Positions 2,675-58,185 of a DNA stretch of 64,000 nucleotides are shown here, one piece after another. The notes under the pieces were generated by a model, which was not told where the DNA came from, ran no database searches, and saw only the letters and a program-made list of their open reading frames with translations. The stretch's first letter is position 1; each line of letters starts with the position of its first letter. Origin of the DNA: a virus; IMG/VR virus record IMGVR_UViG_3300012009_000091, positions 1-64,000 of that record; one strand, written 5' to 3'. Position numbers and translations under genes: made by a program.

Positions 2675-2686
2675 GTCTGACAGGAA

Positions 2687-2911
2687 ATGCGGATGGCTGA
2701 GTATACTGTATTGGAAACCAAACGACTGCCGTTTACACGCGGCGTCTTTGTGCAGCGGATCTACGATCGTTTGAGTCCTGACTTCGTGGTCCATAACTGG
2801 ACGAGAACCTATGTGAGGGCACTTAAAGCTGGTCGTCCACCGATGTTGACAACGATCAAACGGGCGATGCGGCTTCCGTTGGTTCGCCGTGTCTACCCGT
2901 CCGAGGAATAA
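2687..2911 (+). CDS. Small basic hypothetical protein
   Basis: Fills the gap between two long + strand ORFs; AGGA upstream. Confidence 0.45.
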   Translation: MRMAEYTVLETKRLPFTRGVFVQRIYDRLSPDFVVHNWTRTYVRALKAGRPPMLTTIKRAMRLPLVRRVYPSEE

Positions 2912-2912
2912 T

Positions 2913-9207: not shown

Positions 9208-9462
9208 GTGGCAGCAGGTACCGCGTCATGGATTACCAACGCTCTGACTCGGGCCAGACGTGGAGCAGGACATCTTCCTGATATTTGGAGGCACGCAACC
9301 AAAGCGGGAGTACCAGCGGGTCAGCGTTGGGACGCTATCAAGAGGTACGTCCAGAGCCATCCAAGCGGGGCTGGGGATCTGGCGACGTTAGGTGCTATGG
9401 CGGTTCCTATGGGAGTCGGTACCTATGATATTGGATCGTCAGTGCTCGATCAACTAACATGA
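9208..9462 (+). CDS. Small hypothetical protein with hydrophobic Gly-rich C-terminal segment (possibly a frameshift extension of the upstream gene)
   Basis: GTG start with GGAGG SD. The frame is open upstream to at least 9160 and reads VKVA at the start. Confidence 0.55.
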   Translation: MAAGTASWITNALTRARRGAGHLPDIWRHATKAGVPAGQRWDAIKRYVQSHPSGAGDLATLGAMAVPMGVGTYDIGSSVLDQLT

Positions 9463-10178
9463 CACTCAGTCGAGCAGAACGCGATATCGAGATATGGCGC
9501 GCGTGGCGTGCGGATCCTGGTCCACACACAACAGAACCACTGCTCGATTCGATTGAACCCATCGTGGAAAGTACTGTACGCAGTGTTTATGGTCGAGGTT
9601 TGACTGGCGGACGTATGCGTGTTCCGCGGGTGGTTGTGAAAGGGATGGCGAATAACCTTGCCTTAAAGCAACTCGAGACAAATTACAGTCCCGACAAATC
9701 CCAGATCAATACCTACCTGACCAACTGGTTGAGTCGAAAGTTAGCTCCCGAATTAAACACGTATCAAAATATCGTACGTATTCCACACGGGAAAGCTGAG
9801 GATATTAAACCGATTCAGCGTGTTACTAATGAGTTGGAAGAGAAGCTTCAACGGACCCCTTCTGATCAAGATATCGCTGACTACATGAAGTTGCCGGAGA
9901 AACACATACAGGCCGTTCGTCATCAAGCGTCTCAGAAGGATTACATCGCCAGTAAGGCGGAGCTCGAAACTGGATTATTCCAGACGCCGTTTCAGCGCGC
10001 GCTACGGCAGACATACATCGATTTACCGTCTCAGGATCGAGCGCTCTTTGATCTGTGGGTCAAACAAAACAAAAAGCCGGATGAGCTGATGAACTTGCTG
10101 AACGTCAATCGACGACAGTTGTCTGAAAGTCAGTCGAGAATTCGGTCTCATCTCTCCGAGAACTTGGCATTCTCATGA
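9459..10178 (+). CDS. Phage sigma-70-family RNA polymerase sigma factor (group 3 / FliA-SigF-like architecture)
   Basis: Region 2 YSPDKSQINTYLTNWL...IVRIP; region 3 ELEEKLQRTPSDQDIADYM; region 4-like LPSQDRALF...ELMNLLNVNRRQL. Confidence 0.85.
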   Translation: MTLSRAERDIEIWRAWRADPGPHTTEPLLDSIEPIVESTVRSVYGRGLTGGRMRVPRVVVKGMANNLALKQLETNYSPDKSQINTYLTNWLSRKLAPELNTYQNIVRIPHGKAEDIKPIQRVTNELEEKLQRTPSDQDIADYMKLPEKHIQAVRHQASQKDYIASKAELETGLFQTPFQRALRQTYIDLPSQDRALFDLWVKQNKKPDELMNLLNVNRRQLSESQSRIRSHLSENLAFS

Positions 10179-10988: not shown

Positions 10989-13049
10989 ATGACCGAACGA
11001 AGACTCAGATGGCACCAACGATACCCGCGCCTAGCGACCAAAGACGCCTCGGAGGACATCACTCTCGAGTCGGATCGAGATGTGTTTGTTCAAGCGGTCG
11101 GCGAAATCTCTTTGATGACAACGGCTGGATCTGGTTCGGACATTACCCTTAATGCTGCGGGAAAGATCTTCACTGCAGCCAGCGAGAACATTGAGTCATA
11201 CTCAGGTACATATATTTATCTGGAGAGTGGGACGTTCGTTAGTATCCATACAGATACGTATTTTCGGCTCTTCTCTGATGAGTATGTTTATCTGCGCGCG
11301 AAGATGCAAGAAGCTCTTTTAGCTGCTACCTCGTCGGCTGTCCCGCTGACGGGAAATCAAGACGTGATCCTGGCGGCAGATGCCGATATCAGAAAGATTG
11401 CTACAGGTGACGTACTGTCACTTTCTTCGTCTGGAGGCATCTGTTTGAGTACGGACGACACGGTAGCTTCTCCGTATTCTGGATGGACTCCTGTATCGCC
11501 GGGTACTATTGAAATTCAGGCGCATTCCACGGCCCCTGTGAACAACAGGATCTCGTTGAGTTCTAAGCTTGAGGGATCCGCTCTTAGTGCGGAAATTCAT
11601 CTGGCTGCAGATGAAGATATTTCCATTGACTCGAATGGTGCGCTATCCTTGGATACCACGGGAGGGAGCGGCGACGTCACAATCTCCTCAGGCGGTGCGA
11701 TTGATGTGCGAGCACTGCTCTCTACGTTTCATGTGGTCACAGGGGCGGGAGTTCAGATCTCGTCTAAGACAGGCATTGGGCTCCCTGGTGCGGGGATGGG
11801 AAACTATCTCCATTTTTACTCCGACGACAAGACTGGAATCTCCAGTGAAGACGATATCAACCTCCTGACAACTGTCGCGACGGCTGGGATTCGACTGTCG
11901 ACGCAAGCGACTGAAACGTACAATAATCCGACGAATATCACTACCGGGAACATTGAGATTCTCTCTAGTGAGAGTATCGATATCACGGCTGCGGATGACG
12001 TGACCATAACCGGAACAACCGGCAATGGGGGTATGATCTTTACTTCTGGTTGGCTGGTTCTACAGGGCGACTATACGCAGGTAATGGGGCTGGGCGCATC
12101 GGGACTCACTCTTGCGGGTAATACGGGCCCATTGTCCGGATCGGCTGGCACGAATATCACTTTCTCTGCTGACGAGGATATCCGTCTTCGCGCAGAAACC
12201 GGTCATGCATATCTAGCGACTGCTCACAGTCCTACGCCTAGTGACGGTCACATCATCATCACGGCGGATGTTGATGGTCGACTCTTGTGTGATCGACATA
12301 TCATTCTTCAAGGCAATACACCTGTTTATTCCGGAGCAGCGGGTACAGGTGGGATTCTCTTGGATCTCGAGGGTGAGCTAGTTGATTCTGAGTCAGGTGT
12401 GCCTGGGTCGGACTACGAAAACCGGGTGACGTGTTGTGCTCCCGAAGGTTTTCATTCTCGTGTCGGACAAGATGATACCTATACTGACCCTAAGCTCATC
12501 AAGTTGGCTGTAGCTCCCATGTCTGGGTCTCCGTTTGGAGTTGTGTCGTTATCTACTTCGTGGTCTACCGGGTTGGTAGATCTGGAGCCGTCGGCGGCGG
12601 TCATGTACGGCTTGGTTCATCTCCCTTTTGATGTTGAGTTGGTCATGGTCTATGTTCAACTCAGAGGAGATGCGGCAGGAGTTTCGTTTACAATTGGTTT
12701 GATGCGGAAGGATGTGGATTCTGGTGGTGATCCAACTCCAACACAGTTAGTCATTGCCAGCGGTTCTAATTCGGTGAGTACGACTGCGACGTACTTTGCT
12801 TTGCACGGCAATGGGGCTGGATCTACAATCATGACTACTATTGGAAGTAGCCCGCCATCGGATTCTTTTGTAGGCAATCAATCCAACTGGTTTAATGCAG
12901 TCAACAACGAATCGCGAGGTGACGGTTCTGGCGATACGAAATGGGAGGAGCATGGTTTTCTCATTGGCATTCACAACGACGATAGCGTTGATGATCTGCA
13001 CGTTCATGATATTGTCGTTGTGTACCGTGCAAAGGCATCGTATCCATAG
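10989..13049 (+). CDS. Putative beta-helical tail spike/fibre protein
   Basis: Repeated I-x-L-x-A/S-x-x-D-I units typical of triple beta-helix; S/T/G-rich. Confidence 0.55.
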   Translation: MTERRLRWHQRYPRLATKDASEDITLESDRDVFVQAVGEISLMTTAGSGSDITLNAAGKIFTAASENIESYSGTYIYLESGTFVSIHTDTYFRLFSDEYVYLRAKMQEALLAATSSAVPLTGNQDVILAADADIRKIATGDVLSLSSSGGICLSTDDTVASPYSGWTPVSPGTIEIQAHSTAPVNNRISLSSKLEGSALSAEIHLAADEDISIDSNGALSLDTTGGSGDVTISSGGAIDVRALLSTFHVVTGAGVQISSKTGIGLPGAGMGNYLHFYSDDKTGISSEDDINLLTTVATAGIRLSTQATETYNNPTNITTGNIEILSSESIDITAADDVTITGTTGNGGMIFTSGWLVLQGDYTQVMGLGASGLTLAGNTGPLSGSAGTNITFSADEDIRLRAETGHAYLATAHSPTPSDGHIIITADVDGRLLCDRHIILQGNTPVYSGAAGTGGILLDLEGELVDSESGVPGSDYENRVTCCAPEGFHSRVGQDDTYTDPKLIKLAVAPMSGSPFGVVSLSTSWSTGLVDLEPSAAVMYGLVHLPFDVELVMVYVQLRGDAAGVSFTIGLMRKDVDSGGDPTPTQLVIASGSNSVSTTATYFALHGNGAGSTIMTTIGSSPPSDSFVGNQSNWFNAVNNESRGDGSGDTKWEEHGFLIGIHNDDSVDDLHVHDIVVVYRAKASYP

Positions 13050-46325: not shown

Positions 46326-47429
46326 ATGCTTCAAGTAGATCCTTACGACGATAATCGAGAGCGGTTGAATCAACTTCCAGTCGAACTACGTGATGAATTG
46401 CTCAAAACAGGAGCAGATTTGACGTCGACACTCAATTCTCTTCCAGATGTTGACTTTGCTTTGGTCGTAGTGGCTCCCGGTGAGGACAATCGGATTCATA
46501 AGTTTCGGAAGTTTGCGTGTGTGGATGAGGGAAACACAGCCCAGTCCGTGTGGTACTTTTTACAGACGCGCAATCATCTGCCGGATGAGATGCGGAAGGT
46601 GGCTGCACAAAATCTTTTGCGAAGTGCGCGGGATTTTGAGCTCACCCCACCGCCCGATTTGGTGCTGTTGGCCGAAGAGGAAGATCCTTTGCCCGTCACC
46701 AATGTTGTTATCTCCTCTATGGACAAGATCGCGTCGTTTCTTCCTCCGCCAGAAACGGTGGAAAAGATCGCGTCCGAACCTGTTCCTGTGATCAACTGCA
46801 AAGAAGATGTCTTCGACGCTCTTGCTTACTACCACGACAACGCCTTTGCTTTGGATGGGTGGGAAAAGCAAGCACTGGCCCGTCTGCTCGTTCCAGCGGC
46901 CGAAAGATTCGAGGTATCTGTGCCGACGGAGATCGAAAAGCGCGCGGCAGATACCTATGCCGCGGATCTGGTGGAAGCCGTTGTGTGTCGTCAGGTTATG
47001 TTGGCTCCTGAGGATGACTCAGAAGAGTCTTTCCAGAAGGTCGCTCATGTGAACGGCCAGTATCAAAGTCTACTGTGGAGCCGAGCTGATATGGGCCCTA
47101 CCGAATTCGCGCATGAACTTGATCGGATCGACAGTCTGGCTCAACTAGACGGATTTGTTCCAGATGCGGTGTATTCGACCTTCGGGAAGGTTGCGCAAAC
47201 TCAGCCAGATCCTATTTTTGATAACGGGGTCAACAAGCTTTATGAGGACGAGCTCGTCTGGTTTTGTCAGAGCTATCCCAAGATGGTGGAAAACCAATTC
47301 GGAGAGGAGCTTGCAACCGCCATTCTGAAGAAGCCCGTTGTGATTTTTCAATCCCTACCGAAGCCAGTTCAGGTCGCGTTAGCTCGTCTGATTGCTCAGA
47401 AGAAGTCTGAGTACGGGGTTCAACTGTGA
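46326..47429 (+). CDS. K-x-A-motif-rich protein, putative prohead core/scaffold
   Basis: GGAGG SD. Motifs RKVA, DKIA, EKIA, EKQA, EKRA, QKVA, GKVA; two genes upstream of the portal-like gene. Confidence 0.6.
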   Translation: MLQVDPYDDNRERLNQLPVELRDELLKTGADLTSTLNSLPDVDFALVVVAPGEDNRIHKFRKFACVDEGNTAQSVWYFLQTRNHLPDEMRKVAAQNLLRSARDFELTPPPDLVLLAEEEDPLPVTNVVISSMDKIASFLPPPETVEKIASEPVPVINCKEDVFDALAYYHDNAFALDGWEKQALARLLVPAAERFEVSVPTEIEKRAADTYAADLVEAVVCRQVMLAPEDDSEESFQKVAHVNGQYQSLLWSRADMGPTEFAHELDRIDSLAQLDGFVPDAVYSTFGKVAQTQPDPIFDNGVNKLYEDELVWFCQSYPKMVENQFGEELATAILKKPVVIFQSLPKPVQVALARLIAQKKSEYGVQL

Positions 47430-48235
47430 CGAAGGACGCCAAACCGGAAGTTCGTGTTCTGACGATCCACGGCTGGTTGGACGATCTGGATACTCTTTTC
47501 CAGGATGTCCCCGAAGGGACAGTAGATGATTTTGAGATCGACGAAGATCCTGATGAGGATCTCGATCCAGGCGTGCCCGAAGTAGTCACTACAACGTTTA
47601 CGTTGACAGATCTAGAACCGACCACCCTTCTTTTTATTCTCCGACATCAATTCGGAAAAGATTGGTGGCAGCAAGATCGAGAAGCTCTGTTTGAGCTACT
47701 ACGCACTATCGGGCAGACGGTGGATGAGCCTGACAAAGACGCTATTCGTGCGCTGCAACTTCTTCATGTGGATGAGGCGTTTTGGACAGAGTGGGAAGTA
47801 TTTAACTGGATCACGCAGGGGCTGACCGACGGACAAGTCGATTTCACCAATCTGCCTGTTCTCTCGCTGAAAGACATCATGCGATCGATGTTGATGGCCA
47901 TGATCGTAGCACAGAGTCAAAAGGTAGAAGCACATTACAGCGAGGAGACTCTCTCGTACATTGCTGCAACGTGCGTGGAGCACGGTCTTTGGGCTTTGCC
48001 CTTCCCTATGGATGTGGCACAATCCCGCATTCAGCAGATCTTGAAGTGGCGGGGAGCGTCGGATCTGCCTATTGGTCACGTGAAGCAGCTCGTCAAAGAG
48101 AGTGCGACTCCTACGCCCGTAGACGAAGTGTCTACGCAAGCGTACCGATTCCGACTCCTCTTGGATTTTGCCATTCAAGGTCTGAAAGAGACGAAGTCGG
48201 AAATTGACGCTTACAGAGACGCAGTCAAGGAATAG
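47426..48235 (+). CDS. Hypothetical helical protein (head module)
   Basis: GTGA overlap; lies between the K-x-A protein and the portal-like gene. Confidence 0.65.
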   Translation: MTKDAKPEVRVLTIHGWLDDLDTLFQDVPEGTVDDFEIDEDPDEDLDPGVPEVVTTTFTLTDLEPTTLLFILRHQFGKDWWQQDREALFELLRTIGQTVDEPDKDAIRALQLLHVDEAFWTEWEVFNWITQGLTDGQVDFTNLPVLSLKDIMRSMLMAMIVAQSQKVEAHYSEETLSYIAATCVEHGLWALPFPMDVAQSRIQQILKWRGASDLPIGHVKQLVKESATPTPVDEVSTQAYRFRLLLDFAIQGLKETKSEIDAYRDAVKE

Positions 48236-48238
48236 AAT

Positions 48239-50236
48239 ATGTTCGGATCTTCGGCCAGTCTTTCCTCTCCGATGACCCAGCGGCATAATACACGCGGCTC
48301 TGGGCGAATCGGGATTAACTACCCGAACCCCTTCTTTGATTTGTCGCAGATTTACCTACCCCAGAACATGCGCTCGTTGTTCAAGTGGTGTAGATACTAT
48401 GCACTCACGTACGGGCCCATTTTCGCGTTTGTCACCAAGATGGCCTCGTACGCATTGACTCGGTTAGTATGGGGAAGTGATGCCCAGGCAGACCCTGAAA
48501 GGAGGGCTAATCAGAATCTAGCGACGCAGTGGAAAGATTTCTTTGAAGATACGCTGCAGATCTACAAGGCGTGTTATCGAGGTGGGCTGCATTACTGGAC
48601 GTACGGTAATTGGTACTTGTCTATTCACTATCCGTTTGATCGGTGGCTCGCCTGTCCTTCATGTAAACATGAGATGCTGGCGAGAAGATTCCCCAAGAAG
48701 GGGTATCGGTGGCATAGTTACAAGTTCCACGGTAGGTGTACAGCATGCGGATCTGATGTGACTTTCAAAGTCAAGGATGTGCCAGTCCGTTCAAGCAAAC
48801 GCATCAAGCTCAAGCTGTGGAATCCCGAACGTGTGTATCCAGTCGTCAATGAAGCGACGGACGATGTGGAATACTACTATAAGCCGACTCAACAGCTCAT
48901 CAAACGTATCGATCGAGGCGATCGGAAAGTCGTAGAAACTACGCCTTGGCCTTTTATTCAAGCGGCTAAGAAAAATAAAGACGGGTTGGTCAAGTTCAAC
49001 AATCGGAACTTCTTGCACATCTCCGCTCCATCACCCGACGGAAACGAGACGGGGATGGGGCACCCGCCGATACTAGCGGCCATCAAGGATGTGTTTCACT
49101 TACAGTTGATGAAGAGGGCACAGGAGGCTAATGCTGTAGAGCGGACTATTCCTCTTACCGTAGTGCACCCTCTCCCGATGGGAGATGATACGATCAATCC
49201 TCTTCAGTCCACGAATTTAGTCAACTTGATGGACTTCCTCAAAGATGAGGTGGCGATCGCGCGCCGAGATCCCAACTACATTCCATTTTCTCCTCTTCCT
49301 GTCGGCACGTCGCATATCTGGGGAGAAGGGAAGAATCTCCTCCTCGTCCCGGAGATTCGTGGGTGGACCGAGTTGATTGCAGCTGATCTCGCGGTGCCCA
49401 TTGAGTTTATGTTTGGCGGGATGCAATGGTCAGGGTCCAACGTCAGCTTGCGTATGCTCGAGAATCAGATCCTGACTTTCACGACTGGGTACAAGCAGGT
49501 CACTAGGTTCGTCACCAAAGCTGTGGCTAGATTCTTATGGTGGCCTGAGTGTCCGCATGACTGGACTCCGTTCAAAATGGCCGATGACATACAGCTCAAG
49601 CAGCACATGTTGATGTTGTCGCAGCTGAACAAGATTGGTGATTCTACTCTACTCTCTCACTTCGGGAAGAACCCTGTCGATGAAAAAGCCGACATCGAAG
49701 CTAGCATGAAGCAAGCGAATCGCATCGCAAAAGATCAGTTGCTTGCTCAAGCGGAGGCTCAGGTTGAGGCCATGGAGATGCAGCAGAATGCTCAGATGGA
49801 GATGCAGCAACAGCAGAGTACGGGACTTCCTACCGAAACCAGTCAGGCTGCGGCGGGAGCGCCACCTCCTGTGCAAGAGGAGGAATCACAAGAGGAGTTT
49901 GCATATCGTATGGCGGAGCAGCTTGTGAATCAGTCTGAAGATGTGATCCAGCAGACGTTACAACAGGTGTCTGCTCAGTCTCCAGAATTAGCTCAGTTCA
50001 TCTATCAGTTGATTCAACAGCTTCGCGCGGAGACGCAGCAGCCTGTGCAATATGGTCAGCAGCCTGCCCAACAGCCTGCCCAACAGCCTGCTATGGGCGG
50101 ATACAATCAAGCTCAGGTTGTTAGCGGTCCAGAAGGCCAGCTACATCAACAATATGCAGCATCGACTCGACAGATGATGCAGCCTCAACCGCAGATGCGT
50201 CCTCCACAGCGGGGACCTGCTAGTACAGCAATCTGA
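48239..50236 (+). CDS. Putative portal protein with zinc-ribbon insertion and Gln-rich tail
   Basis: YWTYGNWY, KLWNPERV, FLHI...GMGHPPI, ADLAVPIEF..G pattern typical of portal folds; CPSC...CTAC insertion. Confidence 0.6.
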   Translation: MFGSSASLSSPMTQRHNTRGSGRIGINYPNPFFDLSQIYLPQNMRSLFKWCRYYALTYGPIFAFVTKMASYALTRLVWGSDAQADPERRANQNLATQWKDFFEDTLQIYKACYRGGLHYWTYGNWYLSIHYPFDRWLACPSCKHEMLARRFPKKGYRWHSYKFHGRCTACGSDVTFKVKDVPVRSSKRIKLKLWNPERVYPVVNEATDDVEYYYKPTQQLIKRIDRGDRKVVETTPWPFIQAAKKNKDGLVKFNNRNFLHISAPSPDGNETGMGHPPILAAIKDVFHLQLMKRAQEANAVERTIPLTVVHPLPMGDDTINPLQSTNLVNLMDFLKDEVAIARRDPNYIPFSPLPVGTSHIWGEGKNLLLVPEIRGWTELIAADLAVPIEFMFGGMQWSGSNVSLRMLENQILTFTTGYKQVTRFVTKAVARFLWWPECPHDWTPFKMADDIQLKQHMLMLSQLNKIGDSTLLSHFGKNPVDEKADIEASMKQANRIAKDQLLAQAEAQVEAMEMQQNAQMEMQQQQSTGLPTETSQAAAGAPPPVQEEESQEEFAYRMAEQLVNQSEDVIQQTLQQVSAQSPELAQFIYQLIQQLRAETQQPVQYGQQPAQQPAQQPAMGGYNQAQVVSGPEGQLHQQYAASTRQMMQPQPQMRPPQRGPASTAI

Positions 50237-53200
50237 TGCAAGAGATATATAATTTCGATCAAATCAAAGAATCGGTTCAGGAGGCTCTCGGCCAGATTTT
50301 TCCTGTCGCTGGAAGAAACTTGGTTGTCGATCTCAATTCTCTTGATATACGAGATCGGAAGAATCCCGCATCGGTTCATGAGCAGTACGGAGCGTTGACG
50401 TCAGGTCGTTCGTGGACCATCCCGGTCTATGCCAACGTTACGCTTCGCGGCCCGGACGGGGAGTTGGATCGAGGACGGGTTAAAGTACTTGAACTTCCGA
50501 AACTGACCGAGAGAAATACGTTTATCGTCGATGGGAACGAACGTCAGTTGCACAGTGTGCTTCGACGGAAATCCGGAGTGTACACGCGACATGATGAAGT
50601 GGGGGACCTTGTTTCCGAGTTCAATTTGGATAACGGTCTGCATGAGGGAGGAAAGACTGACCGAGGTCGGAAGTTCGCCATACATTTCGACAACACGACC
50701 AACCAGTTCTACACACGTTTAGGTGGAAAGAAGAAAATCAATGCCTACACGCTTCTCGAGTCTCTGGGTCACGATATGGAGGGTCTCCGACAGCGCTTTG
50801 GGGATGAGATCCATTCGAAGAATCTCAAACGGACGTCGAAGAAGATCAAGCAAGATGTTTCGAAGATCTATGACACGATCTACGGATCGAAGGCCAAATC
50901 AGGATTGACTTCAGACCAGATGCGGCAACAGATCCAAGAGGCTTTCCGTAGAACGAAAGTAGATCCGGATACGACTAAAGTTACCCTTGGTACGCCAGCC
51001 GATTCCATTGACTCTAACATCCTCGTGAGAAGCATGGACAAGTTGTTGAACATCTCTCGCGGTCAGGAGAAGGAAGATGATCGTGAGAGTTTGGTGTTCA
51101 AGAAGGTCGTGTTCCCCCCGCAATTGATTGCGGAACGTGTGTCGCATCACCGCAACATCGAGCAGATTCGAGGGAAGATTCGGGCCAAGCTCAATGTCCG
51201 CGGTCGTGGTCGGAAATCACCTGAGCGAGTTGGCGAAGCTGTACCTACGCGCTTGTTGGATAAACCTTTACATGATCTCTTCGCTGAGTCGACCGAATCC
51301 GATCTGGTTGATCAACCTAACCCTGTAGGGATTGCGTCGGGCTACAATCGGATCAGCATGTTGGGTACAGGTGCAATTCGGTCTCTTGATCAGATCCCAT
51401 CAAGTGCTCCTCTGATTTCTCCGTCTCACTTAGGATATATTGATCCGCTACATACTCCAGAGTCGCATAAGGCCGGCGTGTCTGTACATCTCCCGATGAA
51501 CACCAAGATGGGAGAGGACAAACGCCTCGTTTCTCGTATGTTGACTCCGGATGGAGAGGAGAAGTGGGTAGCCGCGGAAGACGCTGCTCAAGCGGTGGTT
51601 GCTGCTCCTGATAGTTACGATATGCGTAGCGGTCGTCCTGTGCCCCGCGGTAAGACTGTTCAAGTTCAGCGAAATGGAGAGATTGAAGACGTCGATCCGA
51701 CTGAAGTAGATTACATCATCCCTCATGCGCGTGATGTGTTCGATGTTGCTACGAACTTGGTGCCTTATCTTCAGAACAACCAAGGGAATCGCGCGATGAT
51801 GGCCGGAAAACATGCTACTCAGGCGCTTCCCTTGAAATACAGAGATACTCCTCCAATTCAAACAGGAATCGAAGGAGATTTAGGCGAGACTGCCGGTGCA
51901 CGGAGGTCGCCTGTTTCAGGGCGTGTTTCTGATATCACTGAAGTGGATGGCGCGTATGAAATCCGCATCCAAGAATCAGGAAAGACCCGTCCGACCATCG
52001 TTCGTGCGTATCGCAACTATCCCATGGCGAAAGGCGTGGTGATGGATTCAGACTTGAAGGTCCAACCAGGGGACTCAGTCAAAACGGGTGATCTTCTAGC
52101 GGATTCGTCTTTCACCAAGGATGGTATGCTGTCTATGGGGACGCCTCTTCGTACAGCTTACATGCCTTGGTATGGCAGGAACTTTGAGGATGGGGTCGTC
52201 ATTTCGGATCGGGCCGCAGACCAGCTCACGTCTCTTCATCTCCATGAAAAGTCAAAGTATGAACCTGAGGCTATCAGTGATAAAACTCGGTTTCTGGATT
52301 GGTATCGGGCTCGATTTCAATCGCAAGATGAGATCAATGCTCTTGATGGAAGTGGTGTGATTCAGAAAGGGCAGACTGTCCAACCTGGTCAGATCCTGAT
52401 GGCTCGACTCAAACAGGTCGAGCGAGATAGTGAGGAAGCTAGACTTCGCAAACGGATGAAGCTAACGCCGTTTGATCCAGTCGTCATGACCTGGGATAAG
52501 GAGGTGCCGGGGACAGTCACTGATGTTCGGAAGAACCGAGACGGTACTGTCCGCGTCTTTGTGAAGACCGAAGAGAAGATGCGGGAAGGAGACAAGCTGG
52601 TCAGCCGCAATGCAAATAAAGGGATTGTGGTGAAGATCCTACCTGACGCAGAGATGCCACAAACAAAAGACGGGAAGCAAGTGGATGTTCTCTTGTCACC
52701 ATTAGGTATTCCTAGTCGCATTAATCTAGGACAAGTACTTGAGACGGCGGCGTCCAAAGTCGTAGAGAAAACAGGGAAACCGATCAATCTGTCGGATCAG
52801 ATGTTTGGCCCCAATAGCGATATTAAACATGTCCAACGATTACTGAAAGACGCTAAAATCACTGATACAGAAGAGCTGGTCGATCCTACTCGAGGGAACA
52901 AATCATTCGGGAAGGTTTTTACTGGTCCACAGTATTTCTATAAGTTGGAACATCAAGTCGCAAAGAAAGAGCGCTCTCGAGGACAAGGAAAATATGATCG
53001 ATGGGATGTGCCTGCAGGGGGAGATGGAGGCGCGCAGACCATCGGAGAGTTAGGCACGTACGCCATGTTGTCTCATGGGGCGGTTGAGAATCTACGGGAC
53101 ATGCAGCTCTACAAATCTCAGAAGAATGATGAGCTCTGGGATGCTTTGATCCACGGCCAACCTATCCCGCCTCCTAAACACATTACGCCCAATGTGCGCT

Positions 53201-56200
53201 TCGAGTCTTTATTGCGTACTGCTGGGGTGAAGTTGAAGAAAGGGGATACACTCAGTTTGATCCCACAGACCGACGAGCAGACCGAAAAGCTGGCTCGGGG
53301 ACGTCCTCCGCTGGAGGACGCCGGACGGATGTATGCGTTTCAACGAGATCGGGTTGTGGAAGAGCCTGAAGGCCTGTTTGATCCTGTCAAGACTGGTGGG
53401 TCAGAGGGAGATAGGTGGAGTTACTTTCGGCTTCCGGAACCGATTCCCAATCCAATGTTTGCTCCGGCTATTTCGTCTTTGACGGGTTGGTCTGAGTCTA
53501 CACTCAAACGGGTGGTCGAGGGTAAACAGGAATATGGGGGTTTGATCGGTGGACCGGCGGTCGCGAAGCGCCTTGAGGAGGTAGATCTGGATGCGGAAGA
53601 AGCGAAGCTTCGGGAGCAAGCCCAGAGTGTACAAGGAAGAAAACGCCTCAACATGGAGAACAAAGCCAAGGAGTTGAGTCGGATCTATCGGAGACTTCGG
53701 TATGTAACGGCTTTGAAAGGTCGGGATCTTCGTCCTGAGAAAGTGTATATGATGCAGAATGTTCCTGTTCTGCCGCCAAAGTTGCGTCCTGTTATCGCTC
53801 TTAGTAGTGGGGAGCGGTCGGCTGACGACATGAACAACCTTTATCGAGATCTTGCGCTGGTTTCGAATACTATGAAGGAGAGTCAAGAGCGGGGGGTCTC
53901 TCCTAAGCACCTGCAGCCTTTGCGTGGCGCCTTGTATGATGGCCTCTCTGCTTTGATCTCTGCTAAGAGTGGGGATCGCCCGTTGAGTGGGGCATACAGA
54001 GGGGTCATTGGTTCTATCTCCGGTAAACGCCCTGTAGAGGAGGGAAAAGGCGAAGTAGGGCAGGCCAAAGGCGGATTATTTCAAGATCAAATCACGCGTC
54101 GTCGACAGGATTTCTCAGCTCGGACGACGATCACGGTTGAACCTCGACTCGAGATTGATCAGATTGGTATGCCCTTCAAAATGGCGTACGAGATTTATTC
54201 TCCGTGGGCACAAAAGCGGTTGCGGGAAAAGTATGGGTACGCTACTCGAGACGCGCGTAAGTACTATGAAGAGAAGGGCCCTGATGATCCGCGTGTACGG
54301 GACGTTCTCTCTGATGCGGTAGCCGAGCGGCCTTCACTTGTCAAACGGGATCCCGCTTTGCACAAATTCAACGTGATGGCTTTCAATCCAGTTCTGGTGG
54401 AAGGCAGTGCATTACAAATCCACCCGTTGGTGACCGGAGGATTCAATGCGGACTTTGATGGCGATACGATGTCCGTATACGTGCCTGTGAAAGAGGAGGC
54501 GGTTGAAGAGTCTTATAAGATGTTGCCTTCTAACAACATCTACAATCCGACAAACGGCAAGTTGATGTACGCCCCGAGTCAAGAAATGGTTTGGGGCTTA
54601 CACAGTCTCACTAGCGTAGGAAAGAAGACCAATTGGAAGTTTGGATCTCGCAAAGCAGCGGAAAGCGCGTTGAATCGTGGGGATGTTCACCAAACAGATC
54701 GCATCAAAATAGGCACGCGTGAGACAACTTTAGGGTGGGAAAAAATCAACGACATTCTCCCCGGCCGGTTTCGTTTCAAAGGGTCTTTGGACAATCGAAA
54801 GCCACTTGACAAGCATCGAATTTCTGACTTGTTGAGTAAGGTCGCTGCAAAGGAACCTGAAACATTCGCCCCACTGGTAAACACTCTCAAGGATGTCGGT
54901 AATCAAAACGCTACAGAAGATGCGTCGTCTTTTTCTCTGAAAGACTTTGATGTGGTAGGTCAGGAGTTCCGAGATCGCACTTTTCGGGAAGCCGAAGAAA
55001 AGGCATCTCGAAGTAAAGATCCACTTGGCGTGCTGTCTGATGCGCTCAAGAAAGTTGATCGACACACTCTTGAAGTGCTGAGTTCGCAAAAGAAGCCGAA
55101 TGCGATCTTTCAAATCGTCACGTCGGGATCGAAGGCCAGTTGGCCTCAGCTCAAGCAAATTGTCAGTGCTCCTGCATTGGTGTACGACACTCAAAATCGA
55201 ATTGTCCCGCGATTGATCAAAAAGTCGTACAGTGAAGGTTTACCGTTGATGGATTATTGGACGGGTCTCCACGGAGCCCGAAAAGGGGCTATCAATAAGT
55301 CCATCTCGACGTCCCGTCCCGGATATCTTGGGAAACAGGTGATGCGGTCTGTGATTGATCAGGTTGTTGTGGAAGATGATTGCGGAACGCGACAAGGTCG
55401 ATCGATGTCGCCGGATGATCCAGAAGCGGTTAATCGGTATTTGGCGTCCGGTATTCGAGTTCAGGGCGGGAAGCGAGATCGGAATTTCAATCGTAATTCG
55501 GTGGTAACGCCGAACATAGTGTCCTCTCTTCGTGCCCACAAGACCCCTTCGATACATGTACGATCTCCCATGCGATGCGAAAGTACGGACGGTGTGTGCG
55601 CTAAGTGTATGGGGTTGGACGAGGAAGGACGGGATTATGCCGTTGGAACGAATGTCGGTGTTCAGGCCGCTCAAGGAGTAGGGGAGCCGTCGACGCAGTT
55701 GTCATTGAATGTATTTCATACCGGTGGGGTGGTAGAGGATCCCAATATTCCTGTTGAGAGCGATCGTCTGCAGCGTGCTGAACACTTGTTGCGGCTTACT
55801 CAACGAATCCCCAATAGTGCTGTGCTCTCTCCGAGATCTGGAAAGATCGAAGGAGTACGAGAAGCTCCTCAGGGAGGACATGAGGTTAAGATCGATGGAA
55901 AAGAGATCTACATTCCCCATGAGAAGAAGTTGTTCGGCAGTATCAAACCGGGTCAGGAGATAGGCAAAGGCGATCCGATGACAGCGGGGCCCATCCATCC
56001 GCTCGAGGTATTGAAGTACAAAGGTACGTATGCCGCGCAGGATACTCTCGCGGATCAATTGTACGACCTCTATAAGGGTGCTCGTGGCACCAAGAAGAAA
56101 CACTTTGAGGTGATCGTACGAGGGATGTCCAAGAACACACAGGTATTGGATCCAAAGGACTCTGAGTGGGAGTCTGGACAAGTGACGTCATTGACGAAAG

Positions 56201-56478
56201 TTAAGAAACATAATCGAGAAGCAGGGAAAGACCAGCGGGTCAAACATCTGCCTATCATGCGTGGAATTGGGACGTCTCCCCTGTTGTCTGAAGATTGGAT
56301 AGCTCGGCTCAATGGAGAGCGACTTCGGAGTACTATCGTAGGGGCGGCCACTCAAGGTTGGGAATCTCAGGCGCACAGTACTCACCCTATCCCCGCGATG
56401 ACTTTTTTGAATGAAGAAGAGCTGTCGGAAGAGTCAGGCTTTGGGCGGCCTATCCAACCGATACGATCTCCGTATTAG
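50236..56478 (+). CDS. rpoBC: Fused beta-beta' multisubunit-type DNA-directed RNA polymerase (single polypeptide)
   Basis: Beta motifs: FIVDGNER, TPE, NRAMM, GRNFEDG, GDKLVSRNANKG, PLGIPSRINLGQ, YKLEH, GAQTIGELG. Beta' motifs: PVLPPKLRP, RQDFSAR, RDPALH, NADFDGD (54445-54465), HGARKG, DDCGT, RSPMRC..VCAKC, GEPSTQLSLNVFHTGG. Confidence 0.95.
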   Translation: MQEIYNFDQIKESVQEALGQIFPVAGRNLVVDLNSLDIRDRKNPASVHEQYGALTSGRSWTIPVYANVTLRGPDGELDRGRVKVLELPKLTERNTFIVDGNERQLHSVLRRKSGVYTRHDEVGDLVSEFNLDNGLHEGGKTDRGRKFAIHFDNTTNQFYTRLGGKKKINAYTLLESLGHDMEGLRQRFGDEIHSKNLKRTSKKIKQDVSKIYDTIYGSKAKSGLTSDQMRQQIQEAFRRTKVDPDTTKVTLGTPADSIDSNILVRSMDKLLNISRGQEKEDDRESLVFKKVVFPPQLIAERVSHHRNIEQIRGKIRAKLNVRGRGRKSPERVGEAVPTRLLDKPLHDLFAESTESDLVDQPNPVGIASGYNRISMLGTGAIRSLDQIPSSAPLISPSHLGYIDPLHTPESHKAGVSVHLPMNTKMGEDKRLVSRMLTPDGEEKWVAAEDAAQAVVAAPDSYDMRSGRPVPRGKTVQVQRNGEIEDVDPTEVDYIIPHARDVFDVATNLVPYLQNNQGNRAMMAGKHATQALPLKYRDTPPIQTGIEGDLGETAGARRSPVSGRVSDITEVDGAYEIRIQESGKTRPTIVRAYRNYPMAKGVVMDSDLKVQPGDSVKTGDLLADSSFTKDGMLSMGTPLRTAYMPWYGRNFEDGVVISDRAADQLTSLHLHEKSKYEPEAISDKTRFLDWYRARFQSQDEINALDGSGVIQKGQTVQPGQILMARLKQVERDSEEARLRKRMKLTPFDPVVMTWDKEVPGTVTDVRKNRDGTVRVFVKTEEKMREGDKLVSRNANKGIVVKILPDAEMPQTKDGKQVDVLLSPLGIPSRINLGQVLETAASKVVEKTGKPINLSDQMFGPNSDIKHVQRLLKDAKITDTEELVDPTRGNKSFGKVFTGPQYFYKLEHQVAKKERSRGQGKYDRWDVPAGGDGGAQTIGELGTYAMLSHGAVENLRDMQLYKSQKNDELWDALIHGQPIPPPKHITPNVRFESLLRTAGVKLKKGDTLSLIPQTDEQTEKLARGRPPLEDAGRMYAFQRDRVVEEPEGLFDPVKTGGSEGDRWSYFRLPEPIPNPMFAPAISSLTGWSESTLKRVVEGKQEYGGLIGGPAVAKRLEEVDLDAEEAKLREQAQSVQGRKRLNMENKAKELSRIYRRLRYVTALKGRDLRPEKVYMMQNVPVLPPKLRPVIALSSGERSADDMNNLYRDLALVSNTMKESQERGVSPKHLQPLRGALYDGLSALISAKSGDRPLSGAYRGVIGSISGKRPVEEGKGEVGQAKGGLFQDQITRRRQDFSARTTITVEPRLEIDQIGMPFKMAYEIYSPWAQKRLREKYGYATRDARKYYEEKGPDDPRVRDVLSDAVAERPSLVKRDPALHKFNVMAFNPVLVEGSALQIHPLVTGGFNADFDGDTMSVYVPVKEEAVEESYKMLPSNNIYNPTNGKLMYAPSQEMVWGLHSLTSVGKKTNWKFGSRKAAESALNRGDVHQTDRIKIGTRETTLGWEKINDILPGRFRFKGSLDNRKPLDKHRISDLLSKVAAKEPETFAPLVNTLKDVGNQNATEDASSFSLKDFDVVGQEFRDRTFREAEEKASRSKDPLGVLSDALKKVDRHTLEVLSSQKKPNAIFQIVTSGSKASWPQLKQIVSAPALVYDTQNRIVPRLIKKSYSEGLPLMDYWTGLHGARKGAINKSISTSRPGYLGKQVMRSVIDQVVVEDDCGTRQGRSMSPDDPEAVNRYLASGIRVQGGKRDRNFNRNSVVTPNIVSSLRAHKTPSIHVRSPMRCESTDGVCAKCMGLDEEGRDYAVGTNVGVQAAQGVGEPSTQLSLNVFHTGGVVEDPNIPVESDRLQRAEHLLRLTQRIPNSAVLSPRSGKIEGVREAPQGGHEVKIDGKEIYIPHEKKLFGSIKPGQEIGKGDPMTAGPIHPLEVLKYKGTYAAQDTLADQLYDLYKGARGTKKKHFEVIVRGMSKNTQVLDPKDSEWESGQVTSLTKVKKHNREAGKDQRVKHLPIMRGIGTSPLLSEDWIARLNGERLRSTIVGAATQGWESQAHSTHPIPAMTFLNEEELSEESGFGRPIQPIRSPY

Positions 56479-56487
56479 AGGACCACC

Positions 56488-58185
56488 GTGCCACAATCGA
56501 GAATACAGCAGCGTGATCGAACGTCGAGACGACAGCCTCCTGCAGCTATCTCTAAGGGCCGGATTCGAGATGTGCATCCTAGATATTGGACGGTAGATGT
56601 GGAGCTCGAGAATGGCGCATTCATCGAGAGCGCACCTGTGGTCTCTCCGTATTTTCACCAGGAAAATGGAGAAGGGTTCAGCGCTCTTCCGGAAATAGGG
56701 GCTCACTGTCTTCTCCTTACTGGTACCGCAGAGGGGTATGAACCGGCGGTGTTAGCGTTCACGCCGCTTCGATCCACGGAGTATCAAGAATCTGAGGAAC
56801 CAGAAGAAGATCATAGTGCTGGGCGAGGTCCTGCTGTCCCTGGGGATATTTACATCCACGGCCGAGATGAGAATTTCGTACGGCTTCGACGTGGGGGAGT
56901 TGTAGAGATCGGGGCGGATGAAGGCACTCGCTCTTGGTACATTCCATTTGGCAATCTCATTCGGCATATCTGCGCTAACTATGAGCTGTCTGTCAGCGGT
57001 TCGGTGGCGCGGATCAATACCCTCGATTCGCCGGAGATCCCGGAAGAGGGGCCGACCCCTCTTCAACTCGATCTGAGATTGCAAGAGTACGTCGAGAAAG
57101 CCCCTCTCATCGACTTGAAAATGGGACACGTGGTGGATGACGAGGGGAGGTCCTTGGCGGCCAATCAGGGGGATATCGTTGCGCGTATGTTGGTGTTTGA
57201 TCAAACAACCGCAGATGCTGCTCAGCGGGATGGCATTGATCCTAGTCCGGATCAAGCCGCTGTGGCGATTCGTTTTGATAAGAACGGAAATGCTGAGCAG
57301 ATCATGTCGGGTCAGTGGCTCGTGCAAGCAGCTGGTCGCCGTCTGTACCTGACCGATTCCGATGTTCAATTAGTCCGAGGAAATCGACGTGAGGAGATCA
57401 CGGGAAATGCAGACCGTCATATCGGAGGCGATGTTATCGATCGTGCTGATGGTTCGCGGGTGATTCAATCACGAGGCCCCTTGACGATCAGTTGTGAACA
57501 ATTACAGATCGAAGAACAGCGAGCGCGACAGACTTCGATGGCCGGGAATCGAGGTACTATTGTAGGTGGGAATTCGGAAGATCAGGTCGCGGGTGATCGA
57601 ACTACTGGATCGGGTGGTGGGGTCAACGATACGTGTTTGGGGAATCGAGCTGTTACTACTGGTGGGAAGGTCATCGAGACAGTGTTGCATGCAGCAGAAC
57701 CGACTAGCATGTTGCAGGGTGCTGTAGCACATCTACTCGACGTCCTGGACGGCACGATTCGTCAAAAAGCGCGGCTGGGAAATATAGAGCTCGAGGTTGG
57801 TCCTCTCGGCTCTCCGATTTGTAAAATTACAGTACACAACAACCCCACACAACCTACAGAGATAGGACGTGTTTCTATTACCTGGGCGAACCCTGCTATG
57901 AAGTTGATTATCGACGGGTTGACGGGAGCGGCCACATTTACGAATATGATAGGGGAGTGGACACTGGGTGCTGACGGTCGGCAGTATGTCGGCCCTCGTG
58001 GTGGAAGCGGGCCTGGTGCAGGGAATGTCGTGACGACGAATACACATCCGTTCTGTTACGTAACCGGCGCGCCCATTATTGGGTGTTCAGGCTCTACTGC
58101 TGCTGGGGTTCCGGCGCCAGGTCCAGCTGCTCCGGTAGTAGGGCCAGCGGATAACATTCCTGATCCTGACATACCGAGGCCGTGA
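56488..58185 (+). CDS. Baseplate central spike (gp5/gpV/VgrG-like)
   Basis: N-terminal OB-fold (GRIRDV...VDV...LPEIGAHC), V/I-x-G-N/D beta-helix repeats, C-terminal THPFCYVTGAP. Confidence 0.75.
   Translation: MPQSRIQQRDRTSRRQPPAAISKGRIRDVHPRYWTVDVELENGAFIESAPVVSPYFHQENGEGFSALPEIGAHCLLLTGTAEGYEPAVLAFTPLRSTEYQESEEPEEDHSAGRGPAVPGDIYIHGRDENFVRLRRGGVVEIGADEGTRSWYIPFGNLIRHICANYELSVSGSVARINTLDSPEIPEEGPTPLQLDLRLQEYVEKAPLIDLKMGHVVDDEGRSLAANQGDIVARMLVFDQTTADAAQRDGIDPSPDQAAVAIRFDKNGNAEQIMSGQWLVQAAGRRLYLTDSDVQLVRGNRREEITGNADRHIGGDVIDRADGSRVIQSRGPLTISCEQLQIEEQRARQTSMAGNRGTIVGGNSEDQVAGDRTTGSGGGVNDTCLGNRAVTTGGKVIETVLHAAEPTSMLQGAVAHLLDVLDGTIRQKARLGNIELEVGPLGSPICKITVHNNPTQPTEIGRVSITWANPAMKLIIDGLTGAATFTNMIGEWTLGADGRQYVGPRGGSGPGAGNVVTTNTHPFCYVTGAPIIGCSGSTAAGVPAPGPAAPVVGPADNIPDPDIPRP

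What the first reader, a model, noticed from the sequence alone, without database searches (positions are those of the whole stretch)
50236..56478. Phage-encoded single-chain fused beta-beta' bacterial-type RNA polymerase
Seen: one uninterrupted 2080-aa ORF carries the ordered conserved motifs of both RpoB and RpoC, including catalytic NADFDGD, bridge helix (HGARKG...PGYL) and trigger loop (GEPSTQLSLNVFH). The junction near 53200-53300 is nearly linker-free: FESLLRTAGVKL (beta C-terminus) runs into DTLSLIPQTDEQ (beta' N-terminus). Known: cellular beta+beta' total about 2700 aa in E. coli, fusions occur in Helicobacter and Wolbachia, and phiKZ/AR9 phage RNAPs are split into several highly divergent subunits. 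Inference: this is a compact, clearly bacterial-derived RNAP captured and fused by a phage. No alpha or omega gene is seen in this window.
Basis: partly seen in the sequence, partly recalled or inferred. Interest (0 to 1): 0.85.

Follow-up and report, generated by a model that had tools for sequence, protein, structure and literature searches.

The report
Single-chain phage RNA polymerase with own sigma
A 167-kb phage encodes both large subunits of a bacterial-type RNA polymerase as one 2080-residue protein. It sits in the virion gene block and the phage also encodes its own sigma factor, so the enzyme is probably carried in the phage particle; this is the ancestral form of a large, barely studied phage lineage.

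Summary
Window 50236-56478 (+) is one open 2080-aa frame, colinear with bacterial beta followed by beta'. All catalytic residues are intact.

It is not an artefact or a cellular locus. The genome is a complete 167-kb phage with terminal repeats, and more than 120 protein clusters of about 2030-2110 aa share the same conserved junction.

The "captured and fused by this phage" reading is not supported. In my tree the fused phage clade lies outside 24 bacteria from at least 10 phyla, and outside the published mReC clade. The two-gene form in Salmonella phage Arash and Vibrio phage D69 is nested inside the fused clade, so it is derived.

New here:
- The window encodes a sigma-70-family protein at 9459-10178. 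It is present in 5 of 5 complete relatives and is modelled onto the enzyme's clamp helices.
- No alpha or omega gene was found, and there is only one RNAP per genome.
- The gene is translationally coupled to the portal gene and is followed by a probable central-spike gene.
- In Arash, the RNAP and sigma homologues are among the most abundant proteins found in purified virions.

The most likely role is a virion-packaged, sigma-dependent RNAP. The scan's first readers noted a similar 2112-aa ORF in another genome.

The parts
50236..56478 (+). Single-chain beta-beta' RNA polymerase gene (2080 aa, P0001)
   Evidence: ORF and translation. Pfam Rpb2_3/_6 and Rpb1_1/_2/_3/_5 in order. PDB beta' chains match at E 1.8e-107. 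Family profile matches bacterial beta and beta' end to end.
50236..53244 (+). beta module (aa 1-1003). Compared with E. coli it lacks the first 29 aa, SI1 (~229-361), SI2 (937-1038) and 1125-1178.
   Evidence: MAFFT mapping to Salmonella RpoB; HMM domain table.
51277..51492 (+). Equivalent of the rifampicin pocket (aa 348-419). The position of E. coli H526 is Gly369 in all 11 family members aligned.
   Evidence: Rifampicin insensitivity is inferred only.
52588..52623 (+). beta active-site motif GDKLVSRNANKG, holding K787 and K795 (= E. coli K1065 and K1073)
   Evidence: invariant in the family.
53200..53280 (+). beta/beta' junction: the beta C-terminus (...GVKLKKG, ending at residue 1003) runs directly into beta' at its residue ~18 (DTLSLIPQTDEQ)
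   Evidence: G1003 and P1010 are invariant and T1012 nearly invariant in 34 homologues. The alignment runs straight through the junction in Arash gp206.
53245..56475 (+). beta' module (aa 1004-2080). It lacks the N-terminal zinc-binding domain (E. coli 64-88, four Cys), residues 127-161, SI3 (958-1132) and the last 23 aa.
53809..53931 (+). beta' clamp helices (aa ~1192-1232), the predicted docking site of the phage sigma factor
   Evidence: Alignment to E. coli beta' ~258-300; interface residues in the complex model.
54445..54465 (+). Catalytic NADFDGD (D1406, D1408, D1410)
   Evidence: invariant.
55270..55329 (+). Bridge-helix region (HGARKG...PGYL)
55381..55608 (+). Second zinc site retained: C1716, C1781, C1788, C1791 (= E. 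coli C814, C888, C895, C898)
   Evidence: all four invariant.
55681..55719 (+). Trigger loop GEPSTQLSLNVFH, with H1828 (= E. coli H936). No SI3 insertion follows.
9459..10178 (+). Phage sigma-70-family factor (P0126, 239 aa), the likely specificity subunit of the RNAP
   Evidence: Pfam Sigma70_r3 at 27.6 bits, above the 25.3 cut-off. Family profile hits SigA structures at E 2e-16 from late region 2 through region 4. Homologue of Arash gp10. Present in 5 of 5 complete relatives. Complex model score 0.78, best control 0.00.
48239..50236 (+). Portal protein gene. Its TGA stop overlaps the RNAP ATG by one base (TGATG).
   Evidence: 28-30% identity to the Arash gp204 and D69 portal homologues, E 4e-75 and 3e-85. 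Model pLDDT 75.5; top Foldseek hits are all portals. Overlap read.
56488..58185 (+). Probable central spike / baseplate hub gene, starting 9 nt after the RNAP stop
   Evidence: PHROG 430, E 4.9e-5. Weak PDB hit to a baseplate central spike, E 0.12. Low-confidence model (pLDDT 54.5) whose best fold hits are the phi812 baseplate and the R2 pyocin and P2 gpV spikes, E 1e-4 to 1e-3. Found downstream of the RNAP in 22 related loci.
46326..48235 (+). Two conserved genes of unknown function (367 and 269 aa) at the head of the portal-RNAP-spike block
   Evidence: Syntenic homologues upstream of the portal in many related loci. No Pfam or PHROG hit.

Best explanation
The ORF encodes an intact bacterial-type RNA polymerase core in which beta is joined head-to-tail to beta' in a single 2080-residue chain. 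It has been stripped of the lineage-specific inserts and of the beta' N-terminal zinc domain.

This is the ancestral architecture of a large lineage of ~150-200-kb contractile-tailed phages. Each of these phages carries a single RNAP gene and a single sigma-70-family gene. In this window the sigma gene is at 9459-10178.

Proposed mechanism:
1. The RNAP is made late, from the portal-RNAP-spike operon.
2. It is packed into the capsid, probably together with the phage sigma.
3. It is ejected with the DNA and starts sigma-dependent transcription of phage genes without needing the host RNAP.
4. As the genome's only RNAP, newly made copies may also serve later transcription.

Shown: identity, intact active site, conserved fusion, synteny, sigma co-occurrence.
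Inferred: sigma binding (model only), packaging (from the Arash proteome and gene position), independence from alpha and omega (no genes found), rifampicin insensitivity (pocket substitutions).
For: Identity and integrity:
- Pfam domains in order.
- PDB beta' match at E 1.8e-107.
- Profile match to beta 50-1338 and beta' 166-1347.
- Conserved residues: D1406/1408/1410, R1371, H1828, K787/K795, R519, E651/D652 and the four Cys of the second zinc site.

The fusion is real and old:
- The best 120 listed protein clusters are all fused. Most are ~2030-2110 aa at 98-100% coverage; the longer ones carry intein or homing-endonuclease domains.
- Junction residues are invariant.
- In a 63-row tree, the fused plus two-chain forms make one clade (SH-aLRT 99), with the two-chain forms nested inside (98).

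Sigma partner:
- Evidence: - Complex model ipSAE 0.78 against a best control of 0.00 (mark reached by 58 of 80 solved complexes and 2 of 110 mismatched pairs). The runs share at least 72% of contacts and the partner's pLDDT is at least 73.
- The interface is clamp helices 1192-1232 with sigma residues 54-73. This is a textbook pair, so the pass may only reflect likeness to solved holoenzymes.

Late, structural context:
- The portal TGA overlaps the RNAP ATG, and the spike gene starts 9 nt after the RNAP stop.
- No excess of promoter-like or terminator-like sites in the block.
- A portal lies upstream of the RNAP in 37 of 50 family loci.

Packaging in a relative (PMC10585845), from Arash virions:
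- gp206 (beta + beta' N-part): 100% coverage, 128 peptides, 3516 spectra, the highest of any protein.
- gp216 (beta' C-part): 1210 spectra.
- gp10 (sigma): 100% coverage, 467 spectra.
- Portal: 877 spectra.

One RNAP per genome here and in 5 relatives.
Against: - No virion data exist for this phage. Arash is only 26-30% identical.
- The Arash preparation was a sucrose gradient in which 116 of 252 proteins were detected, so carry-over of abundant cytoplasmic proteins is possible.
- Sigma binding rests on a structure model of a pair that resembles solved complexes.
- Absence of alpha and omega is a negative result from Pfam HMMs. A divergent assembly factor, or use of host alpha, is not excluded.
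- The GTATAAG motif upstream of non-structural genes looks like a -10 element. The host holoenzyme could read it equally well.
Confidence: 0.6

Rival explanations
1. The RNAP is not packaged in the virion. Host RNAP transcribes the early genes from -10-like GTATAAG promoters. The phage RNAP with the phage sigma then takes over middle or late transcription. Its detection in Arash virions is contamination by an abundant intracellular protein.
For: - GTATAAG occurs 32 times in the genome. In 21 cases a Shine-Dalgarno-like sequence follows within 10-45 nt, which ranks first of 210 letter permutations (mean 4.3).
- All 32 sites lie in non-structural regions, and the motif resembles TATAAT.
- 116 of 252 Arash proteins were called 'virion' proteins, including ribonucleotide reductases.
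Against: - The RNAP gene is translationally coupled to the portal gene inside a structural operon with no internal promoter signal. That is an odd place for an enzyme that would have to act before late genes are expressed.
- In Arash the RNAP has the most spectra of any protein and 100% coverage, and sigma also has 100% coverage.
- The sigma-70 contact residues of the clamp helices and flap tip are replaced. This fits a private sigma, but says nothing about timing.
Confidence: 0.27
2. This is a recent capture: the phage, or a near ancestor, took rpoB-rpoC from a bacterial host and fused them.
For: - Gene order is beta then beta', as in the bacterial rpoBC operon.
- The best PDB and Pfam matches are bacterial.
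- Natural fusions exist in bacteria. I found one in a Paceibacterota MAG: locus L130, one 2284-codon frame.
Against: - The 80 best bacterial loci, out of 595 matched, are only 27-32% identical (best segment) and come from many phyla, with no favoured donor.
- Bacteria form one clade (SH-aLRT 99) that excludes every phage sequence.
- Divergence within the phage clade, about 26-30% identity to Arash and D69, is as deep as divergence from bacteria.
- The junction is conserved across the whole clade.
Confidence: 0.05
3. It is an assembly artefact, or a cellular rpoBC locus binned by mistake as viral.
For: None found.
Against: - The record is 167,069 bp with direct terminal repeats and is rated 100% complete.
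- It carries a portal, a TerL homologue, a family-A DNA polymerase and helicases.
- No ribosomal-protein genes flank the ORF.
- The same fused frame is seen in dozens of independent contigs from many samples.
Confidence: 0.01

Closest known systems
Salmonella phage Arash gp206 + gp216 (with gp10 sigma), and the Vibrio phages D69, D148 and D181
   Same: - Same clade in the tree.
- Same beta/beta' junction.
- Same portal-then-RNAP order.
- Same sigma-like gene in a structural block.
- In Arash these proteins were detected abundantly in virions.
   Different: - In those phages beta' is cut after its catalytic barrel, at query residue ~1495. The result is a ~1525-aa beta+beta'N protein and a ~606-aa beta'C protein, separated by inserted genes (homing endonucleases in D148 and D181). 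Here the chain is uninterrupted.
- Identity is only 26-30%.
- The Arash paper annotates the two proteins simply as 'beta' and 'beta'' and does not mention the fusion.
mReC phages (Weinheimer and Aylward 2020, PMC7481178)
   Same: Tailed phages with recognisable, deeply branching beta and beta' homologues that group with neither the bacteria nor the archaea/eukaryote side.
   Different: - Every mReC entry I read has separate beta (~1000-1490 aa) and beta' (~890-1340 aa) proteins. At least one contig is listed with two paralogous sets.
- In my loci L050-L065 the beta' gene lies upstream of beta.
- They form a separate clade, SH-aLRT 99.
- No fused entry appears in the part of their tables I could read, and the paper uses 'fused' only for crAssphage.
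phiKZ / AR9 jumbo-phage virion and non-virion RNAPs
   Same: Phage-encoded two-barrel RNAPs without alpha or omega, one of which is packaged and ejected (established knowledge; reviews PMC7598289 and PMC7824862).
   Different: - Those enzymes are split into 4-5 very divergent polypeptides.
- They come as two enzymes per genome.
- They have no sigma factor.
- Here there is one chain, one enzyme, clear similarity to bacterial subunits, and a sigma-70-family partner.
Bacterial beta::beta' fusions (Helicobacter, Wolbachia; also a Paceibacterota MAG seen here)
   Same: The beta C-terminus is joined to the beta' N-terminus in one polypeptide. This is tolerated because the two ends are neighbours in the clamp (established knowledge). 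L130 shows one 2284-codon frame.
   Different: - The cellular fusions keep alpha2 and omega and the zinc-binding domain, and they sit in rpoBC operons.
- The phage protein lacks the beta' zinc-binding domain and is about 200 aa shorter than the most compact bacterial beta+beta' in my sample (2284-2298 codons).
crAss-like gp66, YonO and P23-45 TMP-fused single-chain RNAPs
   Same: Single-polypeptide two-barrel RNAPs of phages. gp66 and the P23-45 enzyme are carried in the virion (abstracts).
   Different: Those are so divergent that beta and beta' homology is hard to detect by sequence. P0001 matches all the standard beta and beta' Pfam domains. I did not compare them directly.

Membership tests
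Bacterial-type multisubunit RNAP catalytic core (beta + beta') | beta double-psi barrel with two catalytic lysines, and the beta' NADFDGD aspartate triad | tested here: met
   K787/K795 and D1406/D1408/D1410 align to E. coli K1065/K1073 and D460/462/464. All are invariant in the family.
Bacterial-type multisubunit RNAP catalytic core (beta + beta') | Bridge helix, trigger loop with catalytic His, second zinc site, and colinear domain order | tested here: met
   H1828 = H936; C1716/1781/1788/1791 = C814/888/895/898. Pfam domain order. Profile match to beta 50-1338 and beta' 166-1347.
Bacterial-type multisubunit RNAP catalytic core (beta + beta') | beta' N-terminal zinc-binding domain (four Cys) | tested here: not met
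   The segment matching E. coli 64-88 is deleted, and the family has no Cys there.
Bacterial RNAP holoenzyme (alpha2-beta-beta'-omega-sigma) | alpha and omega subunit genes | tested here: not met
   Six-frame HMM searches of the complete genome: PF01000, PF01193 and PF01192 gave no hit at E<=10. PF03118 gave only two sub-threshold hits, E 0.03-0.04. Use of host alpha cannot be excluded.
Bacterial RNAP holoenzyme (alpha2-beta-beta'-omega-sigma) | A sigma-70-family initiation factor that binds the beta' clamp helices | tested here: inconclusive
   A sigma gene is present. The complex model supports binding, 0.78 against a best control of 0.00, but this is a model of a textbook pair. There is no biochemical test.
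Sigma-70 family (for P0126, window 9459-10178) | Regions 2, 3 and 4 | tested here: met
   Sigma70_r3 scores above the Pfam cut-off for P0126 and matches 10 of 11 family members. The family profile aligns to SigA at positions 65-231, from late region 2 through region 4, E 2e-16. Pfam r2 and r4 models are matched only weakly (E 0.004-0.007), and only by other family members, not by P0126 itself.
mReC clade (Weinheimer and Aylward 2020) | Separate beta and beta' genes, and membership of the mReC RNAP clade | tested here: not met
   This is a single fused gene. mReC-type loci form their own clade (SH-aLRT 99), apart from the fused clade.
Arash/D69-type phage RNAP lineage | Conserved beta-beta' junction, portal-adjacent gene, co-encoded sigma-like protein, shared clade | tested here: met
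Arash/D69-type phage RNAP lineage | Presence of the RNAP and sigma in purified virions | not testable with these tools
   Known only for Arash, by mass spectrometry (PMC10585845).
phiKZ/AR9-type phage RNAPs | Four or five split subunits, two enzymes per genome, no sigma | tested here: not met
   One chain, one RNAP gene per genome, and a sigma gene present. The family's features are taken from PMC7824862.

The most novel reading that the evidence does not exclude
A self-sufficient, single-polypeptide bacterial-type RNAP core assembles without alpha or omega. It is loaded into the capsid with its own sigma-70-family factor and ejected through the tail. It then carries out promoter-specific, rifampicin-insensitive transcription of the whole phage programme. 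This would be a third solution to phage transcriptional autonomy, besides the T7/N4 single-subunit enzymes and the fragmented phiKZ-type enzymes. It would also be the smallest natural sigma-dependent RNAP.
Probability: 0.35. Interest if true: 0.85.

Novelty: new variant of a known kind. Interest (0 to 1): 0.68.

Why it matters
Phage RNAPs related to the cellular enzyme are known mainly as the heavily fragmented, sigma-less phiKZ/AR9 enzymes, or as barely recognisable single chains such as crAss gp66 and YonO.

This lineage keeps a clearly bacterial-like enzyme but compresses it into one chain of about 2050 aa. It drops alpha, omega and the zinc-binding domain, and it keeps a sigma factor.

If the enzyme works alone, it would be:
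- a minimal model for how the two large subunits assemble;
- a way to study how sigma-dependent initiation works on a stripped-down core;
- a compact, probably rifampicin-insensitive, orthogonal transcription module.

The lineage is common in marine, sediment and other metagenomes, and it has cultured members on Salmonella and Vibrio, so the ideas can be tested directly.

The tree also bears on the published claim that phage RNAPs branch deeply. The fused clade is a second deep phage lineage beside mReC.

Tried and rejected
- **Phage database, DNA level.** Megablast of the gene against 50,697 phage records found nothing. There are only distant relatives at protein level.
- **Sigma search.** A first six-frame search with Sigma70_r2 found nothing. 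This was misleading: the sigma gene emerged only through homology to Arash gp10 and the r3 model.
- **mReC membership.** I first assumed the ORF belonged to the mReC clade. Their supplementary tables list only two-gene forms, and my tree separates the clades.
- **Portal and spike by sequence alone.** The portal had no Pfam, PHROG or PDB sequence hit. The spike had only a weak PHROG 430 hit (E 4.9e-5) and a weak PDB hit (E 0.12). The portal was settled by a structure model. The spike model is poor (pLDDT 54.5), so that assignment stays tentative.
- **Other Arash neighbours.** Homologues of the proteins encoded around the Arash RNAP, including helicase gp217, were not found in this genome at E<=1e-3; only the portal matched.
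- **Literature.** Searches for a described phage beta-beta' fusion of this type found none. The library does not hold most subscription journals, so this is not proof of absence.
- **Late promoter.** I did not find a shared motif upstream of the structural blocks by eye.
- **Close relatives in bacterial genomes.** The 80 best of 595 matches were all ordinary rpoB/rpoC loci, with no prophage copy.

Full report
**1. Observation.**
Window 50236-56478 (+) is one uninterrupted frame of 2080 codons. Pfam places Rpb2 domains 3 and 6 at residues 358-921, then Rpb1 domains 1, 2, 3, 5 at residues 1119-1834. The two best PHROG families are of unknown function; weaker hits are to phage 'RNA polymerase beta subunit' families.

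**2. What kind of enzyme.**
I built a profile from 34 full-length homologues (A1). It matches Salmonella RpoB (E. coli numbering) at 50-229, 421-932, 1048-1135 and 1178-1338, and RpoC at 166-950 and 1135-1347.

A MAFFT alignment shows which segments are missing:
- From beta: the first 29 residues, SI1 (about 229-361), SI2 (937-1038) and 1125-1178.
- From beta': the first 17 residues, the zinc-binding domain (64-88), residues 127-161, SI3 (958-1132) and the last 23 residues.

The beta C-terminus abuts beta' residue 18 at phage residues 1003/1004.

All catalytic residues and the second zinc site are kept. The residues that E. coli uses to hold sigma-70 (beta' R275, E295, A302) are replaced, as are the hydrophobic residues of the flap tip. 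The rifampicin-pocket histidine (H526) is glycine in all 11 family members aligned.

At 2080 aa the protein is about 200 residues shorter than the most compact bacterial beta plus beta' among the 80 bacterial loci I fetched (2284-2298 codons).

**3. Not an artefact, not cellular.**
The genome is an IMG/VR record of 167,069 bp with direct terminal repeats, rated 100% complete. It carries:
- a portal. The model has pLDDT 75.5 and its top Foldseek hits are all portals: lambda at E 2e-8, then T4, phi812 and others;
- a TerL homologue;
- a family-A DNA polymerase and helicases.

The protein database returned 120 listed clusters, all fused. Most are about 2030-2110 aa at 34-61% identity and 98-100% coverage, on contigs up to 200 kb. 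Some are longer forms of about 2400-2830 aa carrying intein or homing-endonuclease Pfam domains. Junction residues G1003 and P1010 are invariant, and T1012 is nearly so.

**4. Architectures and history.**
In 78 IMG/VR loci plus two cultured phages I found four forms:
- (a) Single chains of about 2020-2330 codons.
- (b) Single chains of 2400-3000 codons with inserted elements.
- (c) Two-gene forms cut at query residue ~1495: beta+beta'N of about 1450-1550 aa and beta'C of about 600-670 aa. These include Salmonella phage Arash (gp206 and gp216) and Vibrio phage D69.
- (d) A more distant type with separate beta' and beta genes, beta' upstream.

Type (d) is the published mReC clade. Contig Ga0180432_10000070 (149,482 bp) in the paper's table matches my locus L056 in sample number and length. 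Every mReC entry I read has separate beta and beta' proteins, and this contig is listed with two sets. The paper uses the word 'fused' only for crAssphage.

I built a tree of 63 concatenated sequences (1833 columns, LG+G4, quick search, SH-aLRT support, NCLDV beta' as outgroup). It gives:
- Bacteria (24 rows, at least 10 phyla) as one clade, support 99.
- mReC as one clade, support 99.
- Fused plus two-chain forms as one clade, support 99, with the two-chain forms nested inside, support 98.
- The order of the three clades unresolved.

So the fusion is ancestral in this lineage. The Arash-type split is secondary, probably caused by inserted genes. Homing endonucleases lie under the match in D148 and D181.

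A recent capture from a bacterium is not supported. The best bacterial matches are 27-32% identical (best segment) and spread over many phyla.

Caveats: the tree search was short, the model was site-homogeneous, the branches are long, and the outgroup covers beta' only.

**5.
Arash gp10, annotated as a sigma factor, has a homologue at window 9459-10178 (tblastn E 2e-11). The evidence that this 239-aa protein (P0126) is a sigma factor:
- It passes the Pfam Sigma70_r3 cut-off (27.6 against 25.3 bits).
- A profile of 11 family members matches SigA, RpoS and FliA structures, best E 2e-16. The best alignment spans the end of region 2 through the region-4 helix-turn-helix.
- The gene is present in 5 of 5 complete related genomes.
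- It has no paralogue in this genome.

A complex model of P0001 residues 930-1500 with P0126 scored 0.78 against a best control of 0.00. That mark was reached by 58 of 80 solved complexes and 2 of 110 mismatched pairs. The runs share at least 72% of contacts, and the partner's pLDDT is at least 73. The interface joins the clamp helices (1192-1232) to sigma residues 54-73. This is the textbook sigma region 2 / clamp-helix contact. The pass therefore shows likeness to solved holoenzymes, not proof that this pair binds.

**6. Other subunits and copy number.**
No alpha N-terminal domain or omega was found by six-frame HMM search. Only two sub-threshold helix-hairpin-helix hits to the alpha C-terminal domain model appeared. 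This genome and five complete relatives each have a single beta' catalytic domain gene. mReC and phiKZ-type phages differ in carrying two enzymes.

**7. Genomic context and likely role.**
- The portal TGA overlaps the RNAP ATG (TGATG at 50234-50238).
- The next gene starts 9 nt after the RNAP stop.
- Promoter-like and terminator-like sites are not enriched in the block.
- That next gene is probably the central spike: PHROG 430 at E 4.9e-5, and fold hits to the phi812 baseplate and the R2 pyocin and P2 gpV spikes from a low-confidence model.
- A portal homologue lies upstream of the RNAP on the same strand in 37 of 50 family loci. The spike homologue lies downstream in 22.

The sigma gene also sits in a structural block, syntenic with Arash gp8-gp13.

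In sucrose-gradient-purified Arash virions (PMC10585845):
- gp206 was the most-detected protein, with 3516 spectra, 128 peptides and 100% coverage.
- gp216 gave 1210 spectra.
- gp10 (sigma) gave 467 spectra at 100% coverage.
- The portal gave 877 spectra.

The authors themselves note that carry-over is possible, and 116 of 252 proteins were detected.

Late-operon position, portal coupling and the proteome of a relative together make a virion-packaged, ejected RNAP-sigma pair the best explanation. I put this at about 0.6. The main rival, at about 0.27, is a non-packaged middle or late enzyme.

**8. Promoter lead.**
Another first-reader note proposed GTATAAG as a promoter. I find 32 copies in the genome. 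In 21 of them a Shine-Dalgarno-like sequence follows within 10-45 nt. This ranks first of the 210 permutations of the same letters (mean 4.3). None heads a gene in the two large structural blocks, and there is no conserved -35 element. Which polymerase reads the motif is unknown.

**9. Novelty.**
The components are known: phage two-barrel RNAPs, virion RNAPs, bacterial beta::beta' fusions, phage sigma factors. The lineage has been touched twice in print. The Arash proteome paper labels the proteins 'beta' and 'beta'', and the mReC paper covers a sister clade.

I found no description of this fused, sigma-partnered, single-enzyme architecture, within the limits of the library. I therefore class it as a new variant of a known kind.

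The scan's first readers noted a similar 2112-aa ORF in another genome.

Noticed in passing
window 9459-10178 (+): A sigma-70-family gene lies inside a structural gene block. It is a homologue of Arash gp10 and is conserved in all five complete relatives checked. It became part of the main finding.
   Followed up: yes
whole genome; window copies at 33621 (-) and 46251 (-): GTATAAG occurs 32 times. In 21 cases a Shine-Dalgarno-like sequence follows within 10-45 nt, which ranks first of 210 permutations. All copies lie in non-structural regions and there is no shared -35 element. It is a candidate promoter, but the polymerase that reads it is unknown.
   Followed up: partly
L130 (Candidatus Paceibacterota MAG, DATJQA010000074.1), match at 502-6810: A candidate-phyla-radiation bacterium appears to carry rpoB and rpoC as one open frame of 2284 codons. 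This would be a natural cellular beta::beta' fusion outside Helicobacter and Wolbachia.
   Followed up: no
L022:10001-16009 and L042:10001-16000: Two low-GC (34-36%) relatives have RNAP genes that align end to end but contain 5 and 3 in-frame TGA codons, and no TAA or TAG. This suggests phages that read TGA as an amino acid.
   Followed up: partly
L015, L019, L026, L035, L043, L061; proteins P0005, P0041, P0094, P0104, P0112 and others: Many relatives carry 300-900-codon insertions inside the RNAP frame. The database records intein, LAGLIDADG or Hom_end Pfam domains for several of these long forms. In D148 and D181, homing-endonuclease genes sit in the gap of the split gene.
   Followed up: partly
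L050-L065 (IMG/VR mReC-type contigs): mReC-type phages have the beta' gene upstream of beta. According to the published tables, at least one contig carries two paralogous RNAP sets, whereas the fused lineage has one RNAP per genome.
   Followed up: partly
window 10989-13049 (+): A 686-aa protein has a DUF2345 match (E 6e-9), a domain found at the C-terminus of VgrG-type spikes. It may be a second spike-like or needle protein in the block downstream of the sigma gene.
   Followed up: no
genome 132755-133015 (outside the window): A 664-codon frame gives two sub-threshold hits to the RNAP alpha C-terminal domain model (E 0.03-0.04). This is most likely a generic helix-hairpin-helix motif, not an alpha subunit.
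   Followed up: no
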